Below are positions 25,085 through 25,321 of a DNA stretch of 64,000 nucleotides, piece after piece. Origin of the DNA: Promethearchaeota archaeon (GTDB lineage Archaea > Asgardarchaeota > Lokiarchaeia > Sigyniarchaeales > SOKP01). The position numbers were made by a program, and so were the translations under genes. Position 1 is the first letter of the stretch. The number at the start of each line of letters is the position of its first letter. The notes under the pieces are model-generated. The model did no database searches. It saw only the letters and a list, made by a program, of their open reading frames with translations, and had not been told where the DNA came from. The stretch covers positions 50,663 to 114,662 of the forward strand of contig JBHLPW010000004.1 of the NCBI GenBank assembly GCA_048939015.1, in the 5' to 3' direction.

Positions 25085-25091
25085 TAAAAAA
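25085..25091 (-). terminator. Oligo-T tract after the 5S precursor, a candidate archaeal terminator
   Basis: T6 run on the minus strand just past the processing stem; such runs are common in this AT-rich DNA. Confidence 0.4.
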
Positions 25092-25101
25092 GTAGACGAC
25101 A

Positions 25102-25286
25102 TATAACCACATAAAAAAGGCGTGACCGGGTATTTTCCTTGTATGCCATGACCGTAAGCTAACTTACAGTTTGTAGTTTCCCATAAACCGTAATTACAGT
25201 ACTATCTACAACGCTAAACAAGTTTAACTTCCGGGTTCGGATGGTTCCAGCGCCATAGCGAATTGCTATTGGTTCATGTGGTTATA
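25102..25286 (-). other. Precursor processing stem and bulge-helix junction enclosing the permuted 5S
   Basis: 14-bp stem UAUAACCACAUGAA (25286-25273) / UUUAUGUGGUUAUA (25115-25102); leader hairpin AUAGC-AAUUC-GCUAU; GGCG-CUGG-AAC pairs with CCGG-UCA-CGCC. Confidence 0.75.
25124..25244 (-). rRNA. rrf: 5S rRNA gene, circularly permuted (3' part 25244-25163, UUAG linker 25162-25159, 5' part 25158-25124)
   Basis: Minus strand carries the conserved CCGAACCCGGAAGUUAA. Helix I ACUGUAAG/CUUACGGU, helix II ACAAG/CUUGU, helix III ACCCGG/CCGGAAGU, helix V UUGUAG/CUACAA, loop E AGUA/GAA, helix IV CUGUAA/UUAUGG. Confidence 0.9.
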
Positions 25287-25321
25287 AACGCTAGTGTTAA
25301 CCATTATATAAGGTCGGTTAT

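What the first reader, a model, noticed from the sequence alone, without database searches (positions are those of the whole stretch)
25102..25286. Splicing-endonuclease-type junction that would regenerate 5S loop C exactly
Seen: leader and trailer form a 14-bp stem. Inside it, leader GGCG-CUGG-AAC (25254-25244) pairs with CCGG-UCA-CGCC (25129-25119). That gives an outer helix GGCG/CGCC, a 4-bp central helix CUGG/CCGG and a 3-nt UCA bulge. The exon-side helix does not pair, so this is a relaxed bulge-helix-loop motif, not a strict BHB. Established: archaeal EndA cuts after the second nucleotide of each bulge and RtcB ligates the ends. Applying that rule (UC|A and AA|C) gives CCGG-UCCCAUCCGAAC-CCGG, a proper loop C. 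This exact fit argues against a chance rearrangement. Inference: 5S maturation here depends on tRNA-splicing machinery.
Basis: partly seen in the sequence, partly recalled or inferred. Interest (0 to 1): 0.92.

Follow-up and report, generated by a model that had tools for sequence, protein, structure and literature searches.

The report
Permuted 5S rRNA gene, spliced circular
This Lokiarchaeia (Asgard) archaeon encodes its only 5S ribosomal RNA with the back part before the front part, and environmental RNA shows the transcript cut and rejoined at exactly the two predicted tRNA-splicing-type sites, giving a normal 5S sequence that is probably a 121-base ring.

Summary

- **Locus.** Window 25244..25124 (minus strand) is a circularly permuted 5S rRNA gene. 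Helix I is closed by a UUAG loop and the break lies in loop C. Leader GGCG-CUGG-AAC and trailer CCGG-UCA-CGCC form a relaxed bulge-helix-bulge. It has an outer helix, a 4-bp central helix and two 3-nt bulges, but no exon-side helix.
- **RNA evidence.** Metatranscriptome contigs from four studies cover only 25124-25244. They join 25124 directly to 25244, which is the predicted junction ACCCGGUC|CCAUCCGAAC. Three contigs are 151 nt (121 + k-1), as expected for a closed cycle.
- **Conservation.** I compared 93 distinct loci. The central helix pairs in 369 of 372 cells, and the first three outer pairs in 279 of 279.
- **Two break points.** Both occur within the genus. Each type encodes in one piece the junction the other must create.
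- **Spread.** The layout is present in 119 of 135 genomes of the family and in at least six other Asgard families. The sister family, and several families elsewhere in the phylum, keep ordinary 5S genes.
- **Enzymes.** The genome has alpha-like and beta-like EndA subunits and RtcB.

Still inferred: that EndA and RtcB do the work, and that the ring is the ribosomal form.

The closest precedent is the permuted circular SRP RNA of Thermoproteus. This scan has noted the same layout before in many other Asgard genomes. I found no paper reporting it.

The parts
25303..25312 (-). TATA-box-like element (CUUAUAUAAU), about 17 nt upstream of the outer stem. Its role as a promoter is inferred.
   Evidence: Read. 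The block AACCGACCUUAUAUAAUGG recurs, with small changes, upstream of most loci of the genus. No transcription start was mapped.
25273..25286 (-). 5' strand of the long-range leader/trailer stem (UAUAACCACAUGAA).
   Evidence: The fold pairs it over 14 bp with 25115-25102. AUAACCACAU / AUGUGGUUAU recur across the genus.
25255..25269 (-). Leader hairpin AUAGC-AAUUC-GCUAU. Its function is unknown.
   Evidence: Present in the minimum-energy and centroid folds. The stem changes on both sides in relatives (GUAGC/GCUAC, GUGC/GCAC, GCAGC/GCUGC).
25251..25254 (-). Outer helix of the splicing motif, leader strand (GGCG).
   Evidence: Pairs with CGCC at 25122-25119. The first three outer pairs form in 93 of 93 loci, against 5-66% in shifted registers.
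25247..25250 (-). Central 4-bp helix, leader strand (CUGG). It imitates a strand of 5S helix III.
   Evidence: Pairs with CCGG at 25129-25126. Paired at all four positions in 31 of 31 type-A loci. The leader strand follows changes in helix III: CCGG/CCGG, CUGG/CCAG, CUGG/UCAG.
25244..25246 (-). Leader 3-nt bulge AAC. The cut falls between 25245 and 25244.
   Evidence: RNA contigs start exactly at 25244. The bulge is AAC in 28 of 31 type-A loci.
25124..25244 (-). Permuted 5S rRNA, 121 nt. Order: 3' part of loop C, helix III 3' strand, helix II 3' strand, helices V/IV, helix I 3' strand, UUAG, helix I 5' strand, helix II 5' strand, helix III 5' strand, UC.
   Evidence: RF00001 gives 27.9 bits, with only the 3' two-thirds aligned well. 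After rotation the sequence is colinear with an ordinary 5S of the sister family (73/122 identical; score 85 against 36 in genomic order). 13 of 33 pairs show compensatory changes. Model R1 gives 123.9 bits. RNA contigs cover exactly this span.
25159..25162 (-). UUAG tetraloop that joins the native 3' and 5' ends of helix I.
   Evidence: the loop reads UUNG (UUAG, UUUG, UUCG) or UCCG in the 23 aligned loci of the genus; other genera also show UACG or UAUG. The flanking helix I pairs change on both sides (A-U to G-C, G-C to A-U). RNA contigs run straight through it.
25126..25129 (-). Central helix, trailer strand (CCGG). This is also the 5' strand of 5S helix III.
25123..25125 (-). Trailer 3-nt bulge UCA. 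The cut falls between 25124 and 25123.
   Evidence: RNA contigs end exactly at 25124 and continue into 25244. The bulge is UCA in 24 of 31 and UCU in 4 of 31 type-A loci.
25119..25122 (-). Outer helix, trailer strand (CGCC).
25102..25118 (-). U-run (25118-25113) followed by the 3' strand of the long-range stem (25115-25102).
   Evidence: In relatives the U-run is often interrupted while AUGUGGUUAU is kept. The stem therefore looks more constrained than the U-run.

Best explanation
The locus is the organism's only detectable 5S rRNA gene, and it is circularly permuted. Transcription (inferred) gives a precursor. Its leader and trailer pair into a long stem that presents a relaxed bulge-helix-bulge. 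In that motif a leader 4-mer (CUGG) stands in for one strand of 5S helix III and pairs with the real CCGG of the trailer.

The heterotetramer-type splicing endonuclease is inferred to cut after the second nucleotide of each 3-nt bulge (AA|C and UC|A). RtcB is inferred to join the new ends. This step is shown at the RNA level. It creates loop C (UCCCAUCCGAAC), frees the trailer CCGG to form helix III, and discards the leader and trailer.

Helix I is already closed by UUAG, so the product is most likely a covalently closed 121-nt 5S rRNA.
For: 1. **Junction in RNA.** Contigs from four metatranscriptome studies cover only 25124-25244. They join 25124 to 25244 with nothing in between. Three contigs are 151 nt, which equals 121 + 30, and one variant is 150 nt.
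2. **Motif conserved with covariation.** In 93 distinct loci the central helix pairs at 31/31 x4 (type A) and 62, 62, 62 and 59 of 62 (type B). The outer three pairs form in 93/93 each. Shifted registers give 5-66%.
3. **Two break points that check each other.** Joined type-A loci give UCCCAUCCGAAC in 27 of 31. This is also the commonest loop C encoded in one piece in type-B loci. The type-B junction CCGGAA|GUUAAAC is encoded in one piece in type A.
4. **It is a 5S.** There is a three-way junction with 13 of 33 covarying pairs. After rotation it is colinear with an ordinary 5S.
5. **No other 5S.** None was found in this genome. The two ordinary 5S hits in the family lie next to bacterial 23S genes, so they are on contaminant contigs.
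6. **Widespread.** 119 of 135 family genomes carry the layout, nearly all as full-length matches, with one locus per genome apart from a contig-end fragment in one genome.
7. **Enzymes present.** There is a catalytic EndA alpha-like subunit (best match A. pernix 3p1z_B, E 1e-35; Tyr, His and Lys kept; loop region aligned). There is a beta-like subunit with the His replaced. RtcB scores 570 bits. PMC5829648 reports this EndA type for Asgard archaea, with broad specificity.
8. **Precedent.** The permuted SRP RNA of Thermoproteus is matured in the same way, including in-vitro EndA cleavage (PMC4731332).
Against: - No enzyme assay was done, so EndA and RtcB are assigned from motif geometry and gene presence only.
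- The RNA evidence consists of assembled contigs, not reads. Contigs cannot show ends, strand or amounts.
- A closed cycle in the assembly graph could also come from a mixture: joined molecules opened elsewhere, plus precursors.
- The motif lacks the exon-side helix.
- In the precursor the mature helix III competes with the central helix.
- The runs are environmental, so the RNA comes from this species or a near relative (0-1 differences in the best contigs).
Confidence: 0.85

Rival explanations
1. The ring is only an intermediate. After ligation the RNA is reopened, for example at the helix I loop, and a linear 5S of ordinary topology enters the ribosome. Permuted tRNAs of Cyanidioschyzon mature in this way.
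For: Permuted tRNA genes mature through a circular intermediate that is then opened (Soma 2007, as cited in PMC4267664). Contigs cannot show RNA ends.
Against: - The helix I joint is a bare 4-nt loop, often UUCG, with no spacer and no recognisable processing signal.
- All contigs run through it.
- The 151-nt contigs indicate an unbranched closed cycle.
- The Thermoproteus SRP RNA precedent stays circular (PMC4731332).
Confidence: 0.12
2. The junction is made by other enzymes. Candidates are a different endonuclease or a self-cleaving element, with an Rnl3-type ligase instead of EndA and RtcB.
For: Heterogeneous circular 5S-derived RNAs exist in Halobacterium and Sulfolobus and are not tied to a BHB (PMC12558985). 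No enzyme was tested here.
Against: - The junction is one exact site, not a scatter.
- It lies after the second nucleotide of each 3-nt bulge beside a covarying 4-bp helix. This holds in every lineage and at three different break points.
- That is the EndA rule.
Confidence: 0.03
3. The RNA works as a linear permuted 5S with an open loop C, as in brown-algal mitochondria. On this view the joined contigs are artefacts, or come from DNA with tandem 5S units.
For: Permuted 5S that stays permuted in the final product is known in stramenopile mitochondria (PMC4267664).
Against: - The joined form is seen in four independent studies.
- Leader and trailer are absent from the RNA contigs.
- None of the loci read here shows 121-nt units in tandem without a spacer, and 119 of 135 family genomes carry the permuted locus, with one locus per genome apart from a contig-end fragment in one.
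- Loop C is a conserved functional loop, and joining restores its exact sequence.
Confidence: 0.02

Closest known systems
Permuted, circularised SRP RNA of Thermoproteus tenax / T. uzoniensis (Plagens et al. 2015, eLife, PMC4731332)
   Same: - A universal non-coding RNA whose gene seemed to be missing because it is permuted.
- The new termini lie beside a functionally important loop.
- Leader and trailer form a BHB.
- RNA-seq shows the ends ligated, which restores the loop.
- The host has a heterotetrameric, relaxed-specificity EndA and very many tRNA introns.
   Different: - Here the RNA is 5S rRNA, a ribosome component.
- The layout is spread over a whole family (119 of 135 genomes) and several other Asgard families, not two species.
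- The break point differs between close relatives (loop C, 3' of helix III, loop B).
- One strand of the central helix is a leader-encoded imitation of a 5S helix strand.
- There is no in-vitro cleavage, northern blot or binding assay here.
Circularly permuted tRNA genes (Cyanidioschyzon merolae; reviewed in PMC3978253)
   Same: The 3' half is encoded before the 5' half. A BHB forms between leader and trailer, and there is a circular RNA stage.
   Different: tRNA circles are reopened to give linear tRNAs with native ends. Here the native ends are joined by a 4-nt loop with no sign of reopening.
BHB-dependent circular pre-16S/23S rRNA and circularly permuted or circular 23S rRNA in archaea (PMC7758197, PMC12918454)
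   Same: A processing stem with a BHB, EndA cleavage and ligation of an rRNA into a ring. In some archaea the ring or a permuted form is in the ribosome.
   Different: Those genes are colinear with the rRNA, and the permutation arises only at the RNA level. PMC12918454 states that this pathway concerns 16S and 23S 'but not 5S'.
Permuted mitochondrial 5S rRNA of brown algae (Valach et al. 2014, PMC4267664)
   Same: A 5S rRNA gene with rearranged domain order that standard models miss.
   Different: In the organelles the final RNA stays permuted, with no ligation and no BHB. Here the ordinary sequence order is restored by splicing.

Membership tests
5S rRNA (Rfam RF00001) | Score at or above the family's gathering threshold (38 bits) | tested here: not met
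   As encoded, the locus scores 27.9 bits, E 1e-3, with only model positions ~38-120 well aligned. There was no hit in the gathering scan. This is expected for a permuted gene. The rotated sequence could not be given to the Rfam tool.
5S rRNA (Rfam RF00001) | Three-way junction with helices I-V supported by covariation, plus conserved loop C and loop E sequence | tested here: met
   The RNAalifold consensus of 23 loci gives a three-way junction. 13 of 33 pairs show compensatory changes. CCGAAC, GGAAGUUAAAC and AGUAC...GGGAA are conserved. After rotation the sequence is colinear with the sister family's 5S.
5S rRNA (Rfam RF00001) | It is the organism's 5S: no other copy, and it is expressed | tested here: met
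   No other RF00001 match was found in the 94.9%-complete genome. Other hits in the family lie on bacterial contaminant contigs. The sequence is present in RNA libraries of four studies.
Bulge-helix-bulge substrate of archaeal splicing endonuclease (EndA) | Central helix of exactly 4 bp | tested here: met
   CUGG/CCGG in the window. 369 of 372 cells are paired over 93 loci, with compensatory changes.
Bulge-helix-bulge substrate of archaeal splicing endonuclease (EndA) | Two 3-nt bulges on opposite strands, each 3' of its central-helix strand | tested here: met
   AAC and UCA in the window. The same geometry is seen at both break types and in other families.
Bulge-helix-bulge substrate of archaeal splicing endonuclease (EndA) | Flanking helices on both sides (strict hBHBh') | tested here: not met
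   The outer helix is present (GGCG/CGCC; 93/93 for three pairs). The exon-side helix is absent (CAUCC against AAUAC). This makes it a relaxed BHL/hBH motif. Such motifs are cut only by (alpha-beta)2 and epsilon2 enzymes (PMC5829648).
Bulge-helix-bulge substrate of archaeal splicing endonuclease (EndA) | Cleavage after the second bulge nucleotide, followed by ligation of the ends | tested here: met
   The RNA contigs begin and end at 25244 and 25124, and the two positions are joined directly.
Bulge-helix-bulge substrate of archaeal splicing endonuclease (EndA) | Cleaved by the host EndA in vitro or in vivo | not testable with these tools
   Only gene presence is shown: an alpha-like and a beta-like EndA subunit and RtcB.
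Permuted non-coding RNA genes matured into circles (Thermoproteus SRP RNA type) | 3' part encoded upstream of the 5' part, with the native ends joined | tested here: met
Permuted non-coding RNA genes matured into circles (Thermoproteus SRP RNA type) | Mature RNA is covalently circular | tested here: inconclusive
   Contigs of 151 nt (121 + k-1) wrap around the unit and cross both the junction and the helix I loop. Contigs cannot prove that single molecules are closed. No RNase R or gel data are available.

The most novel reading that the evidence does not exclude
In much of the Asgard phylum, including this whole Lokiarchaeia family, the ribosome's 5S rRNA is a covalently closed ring. It is made from a permuted gene by the tRNA-splicing machinery. 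Because the product is a ring, the position of the gene's break is free to drift: loop C, 3' of helix III and loop B are all seen among relatives. BHB introns are also tolerated inside the 5S gene.
Probability: 0.55. Interest if true: 0.92.

Novelty: new variant of a known kind. Interest (0 to 1): 0.85.

Why it matters
- **5S rRNA is universal, and its gene is usually trivial to find.** Here it is invisible to standard annotation (no Rfam hit). The genome descriptions I read in a paper on complete Asgard genomes list 16S and tRNA genes but no 5S.
- **Ribosome assembly depends on the tRNA-splicing enzymes.** In these close relatives of eukaryotes, the organism cannot make a normal loop C without cutting and ligating the transcript.
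- **It extends BHB-driven RNA circularisation.** The process was known for 16S and 23S intermediates, SRP RNA and tRNA. It now reaches the third rRNA, which one recent paper explicitly excluded.
- **The two break points within one genus are a natural experiment.** They show how permuted genes evolve once the product is circular.
- **Practical consequence.** Genome-quality standards that ask for a 5S gene will under-score Asgard genomes until a permuted model is in use.

Tried and rejected
- The Rfam gathering scan of the window gave nothing, and ARAGORN found no tRNA.
- The ordinary 5S hits in the family looked at first like a second, normal 5S (G076:C68 at 80.8 bits, G094:C263 at 51.9 bits). 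Both lie directly downstream of a bacterial-type 23S rRNA, so I rejected them as contaminant contigs.
- The R1 hit in G027 (23.5 bits, E 0.67) lies in G+C-rich sequence that looks coding. I treated it as noise.
- My first two parsing scripts mis-registered type-A leaders. In one search the regex was too strict. In one search the match was mis-registered. Only one search is used.
- One paper reading failed because the term was too short. I did not recheck Penev et al. 2020 for 5S.
- Record titles calling some of these contigs Odin-, Thor-, Hod- or Hermodarchaeota conflict with the genus grouping of the genome search. I did not use them for taxonomy.
- I did not build a tree to count break-point switches, because a 100-nt core would not resolve it.
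- I ran no complex prediction, because an enzyme-substrate pair is outside what that tool tests.
Type-B junctions and the inserts inside 5S were therefore not checked in RNA.

Full report
**1. What is in the sequence**

Read on the minus strand, window 25286..25100 holds the following, in order:
- a leader
- GGCG-CUGG-AAC
- the 3' part of 5S loop C (CAUCCGAAC)
- the 3' strand of helix III (CCGG), then GAAGUUAAAC
- the 3' strand of helix II
- the helix V / loop E / helix IV arm
- the 3' strand of helix I (ACUGUAAG)
- a UUAG loop
- the 5' strand of helix I (CUUACGGU)
- loop A
- the 5' strand of helix II
- the 5' strand of helix III (CCGG)
- UCA-CGCC and a U-run

The Rfam gathering scan finds nothing in the window. 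The permissive scan gives RF00001 at 27.9 bits, below the 38-bit threshold, and only the 3' two-thirds align well. This is what a permuted gene should give. After rotation the 121 nt between the predicted cuts are colinear with an ordinary 5S of the sister family: 73 of 122 columns are identical, and the alignment score is 85 against 36 in genomic order.

The precursor folds with 14 outer leader/trailer pairs, a leader hairpin and GGCG/CGCC. The energy is -54 kcal/mol with z = -3.45.

**2. The organism and its other 5S genes**

The genome is 4.86 Mb and 94.9% complete. It has no other RF00001 match. Record titles of homologous contigs mostly name Promethearchaeota / Promethearchaeia, that is Lokiarchaeia, Asgard.

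In the sister family f2, 12 of 14 genomes carry ordinary 5S genes at 50-69 bits, some in tandem arrays.

In the window's own family only two genomes gave an ordinary 5S. Both hits lie directly downstream of a bacterial-type 23S rRNA, so they sit on contaminant contigs.

**3. Conservation**

A DNA search found the locus in 23 of 24 sampled genomes of the genus. An alignment of 23 cores gives the 5S three-way junction with helix I closed by a tetraloop. 13 of 33 pairs show compensatory changes.

A covariance model built from that alignment (R1) finds matches in 119 of 135 genomes and 12 of 13 genera of the family. Nearly all are full-length, and there is one locus per genome apart from a contig-end fragment in G013.

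**4. Two break points that check each other**

Within the genus, and also within two other genera, there are two layouts.
- **Type A** (the window): the break is in loop C. Leader ..GCG-CYGG-AA|C-CAUCCGAAC.., trailer ..CCGG-UC|A-CGC..
- **Type B**: the break is 3' of helix III. Leader ..GCG-CYGG-AA|G-UUAAAC.., trailer ..CCGG-loop C-CCGG-AA|A-CGC..

I then counted 93 distinct loci, 31 of type A and 62 of type B.
- The central 4-bp helix pairs at 31/31 in all four positions for type A. For type B the counts are 62, 62, 62 and 59 of 62.
- The first three outer pairs form in 93/93 each. Shifted registers give 5-66%.
- The leader strand follows helix III. The leader/trailer combinations are CCGG/CCGG (38), CUGG/CCAG (13) and CUGG/UCAG (3). 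The leader 4-mer is therefore constrained to pair, not merely inherited.
- Applying 'cut after the second bulge nucleotide' to type A gives loop C UCCCAUCCGAAC in 27 of 31 loci. This is also the commonest loop C that type-B genes encode in one piece.
- Conversely, the type-B junction CCGGAA|GUUAAAC is encoded in one piece in type A.

**5. RNA evidence**

Fifteen runs on record as RNA hold part of the stretch. Contigs of four runs from four studies were laid on 25090-25300.
- Coverage is exactly 25124-25244. Nothing lies on the leader or the trailer.
- X1 (two contigs) and X5 (one contig) show the joint '25244 -> 25124, goes back 121' with no letters in between.
- X3 and X10 show the same junction as loose ends. 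These are CCGGGTTCGGATGG before 25124 and GACCGGGTATTTTCCT behind 25244, which are the plus-strand letters of the far end of the unit.
- Three contigs are 151 nt, which is 121 + 30, the length a k = 31 assembler gives a closed 121-nt cycle. A variant with one base fewer gives 150 nt.
- The best contigs differ from the window at 0-1 positions.

The helix I loop is also continuous in RNA. Contigs cannot show ends or prove that single molecules are closed.

**6. Enzymes**

The genome encodes two EndA paralogs and one RtcB.
- The 198-aa paralog matches the catalytic subunit of the Aeropyrum pernix heterotetramer best (3p1z_B, E 1e-35). It keeps the Tyr, His and Lys positions and aligns through the Crenarchaea-type loop region (..NKPR..).
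- The 206-aa paralog has both EndA domains, but the catalytic His is replaced: NDSARF where M. jannaschii has KEHSVY. It looks like a structural beta subunit.
- PMC5829648 reports that Asgard archaea have (alpha-beta)2 EndA with the L1 loop. It also reports that only this type and the epsilon2 type cleave relaxed motifs.
- Earlier unchecked notes of this scan record many 30-nt non-canonical tRNA introns in the same genome.

**7. Spread beyond the family**

The same layout, with its own leader/trailer motif, is seen in several other families.
- **f3**: a third break, in loop B. Leader ..CCGA-AA|A.., trailer ..UCGG-AA|A...
- **f4**.
- **f5**: includes a closed 1.4-Mb genome. The outer helix has 10 perfect pairs and the central helix is CGUG/CACG.
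- **f6**: a 9-bp outer helix.
- **f7**: includes a closed 3.1-Mb genome.
- **f10**: an 11-bp outer helix.

Ordinary 5S genes are found in f9 (37/37), f14 (7/7), f18, f27, f28 and f2. Many other families give no 5S hit at all.

**8. Mechanism**

Shown:
- the permuted gene order
- a conserved, covarying BHL motif
- an exact ligated junction in RNA
- presence of a suitable EndA and of RtcB

Inferred:
- EndA cuts and RtcB joins
- the precursor first adopts the processing fold, in which the leader 4-mer occupies the helix III strand, and helix III forms only after ligation
- the product stays a 121-nt ring and is the ribosomal 5S

**9. What is known**

The closest precedent is the permuted SRP RNA of Thermoproteus. 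It has a BHB between leader and trailer, RNA-seq junction reads, a circular product and in-vitro EndA cleavage (PMC4731332).

Other related cases:
- Permuted tRNA genes.
- Circular 16S/23S intermediates, and circular or permuted 23S (PMC7758197, PMC12918454).
- Permuted organellar 5S, which stays permuted (PMC4267664).
- Circular 5S-derived RNAs in Halobacterium and Sulfolobus. These are heterogeneous and were suggested to be degradation products (PMC12558985).

Eight full-text searches found no paper describing a permuted archaeal 5S gene. PMC12918454 states that circularisation concerns 16S and 23S 'but not 5S'. This scan has itself noted the same layout in many other Asgard genomes. Those notes agree with the reading here, but they are not independent evidence.

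**10. Verdict**

This is a new variant of a known kind: permuted non-coding RNA genes matured by the splicing machinery. It is of high interest because it concerns a universal rRNA across much of the Asgard phylum.

Noticed in passing
L019, L021, L062, L064, L079, L085, L099, L100 and others (type-B loci), inside loop C: 17 of 62 type-B loci carry an insert of about 30 nt in loop C, for example CCGAA[AAACC...GGUUCGGGAA]CCCGG. It folds as its own BHB, with central helix UCCG/CGGG, bulges AA|A and AA|C, and an inner helix AACCA/UGGUU. Removing it restores CCCAUCCGAACCCGG. These are candidate 5S rRNA introns on top of the permutation.
   Followed up: partly
L012-L015, L023, L024, L089 (helix IV / loop D); L085 (helix I 3' strand): About 30-nt inserts occur at other 5S positions; 19 of 93 cores are 131-133 nt long. 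In L012 the insert has a strict BHB: central UUGC/GUAG, bulges GA|A and AC|U, inner helix CAGACC/GGUCUG, and helix IV as the outer helix. G080 carries both a loop-C insert and a helix I insert. None was checked in RNA.
   Followed up: partly
L094 (G026:C63, family f3); L095 (G029:C451, family f4): In f3 there is a third break point, in loop B between the helix II 5' strand and helix III. Helix III and loop C are encoded intact at the 5' end. In f4 there is a type-B-like layout with a weaker outer helix.
   Followed up: partly
L191/L194 (f5, includes a closed 1.4-Mb genome), L192 (f6), L200/L201/L204 (f7, includes a closed 3.1-Mb genome), L202 (f10): Type-B-like permuted 5S genes with long perfect outer helices (9-11 bp) occur in other Asgard families. 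Many further families (f15, f16, f17, f21, f22, f24 and others) gave no 5S hit at all. They may hide other rearranged forms.
   Followed up: partly
window 25255-25269 (-) and the equivalent position in all loci: A small leader hairpin lies between the long-range stem and the outer helix. Its loop is often AAUUC or a near variant (AUUUC, ACUC). The stem co-varies: AUAGC/GCUAU, GUAGC/GCUAC, GUGC/GCAC, GCAGC/GCUGC. In f7 a longer hairpin sits at the same place. Its function is unknown.
   Followed up: no
L036 (G032:C1, sister family f2): Three ordinary 5S genes lie in a head-to-tail array with a period of about 375 nt. Tandem copies are the classical starting point for making a permuted gene by loss of the outer halves.
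   Followed up: no
L032 (G076:C68) 2054-2368: A group I intron (RF00028, 65 bits) sits inside the bacterial 23S rRNA of a contaminant contig binned with a Lokiarchaeia genome.
   Followed up: no
L203 (G289:C16, family f9): This 5S gene is in ordinary order but 150 nt long. Extra sequence lies in the helix IV/V arm: 68 nt where the model has 39. It scores 37.1 bits, just under the threshold. It could be an intron or an expansion.
   Followed up: no
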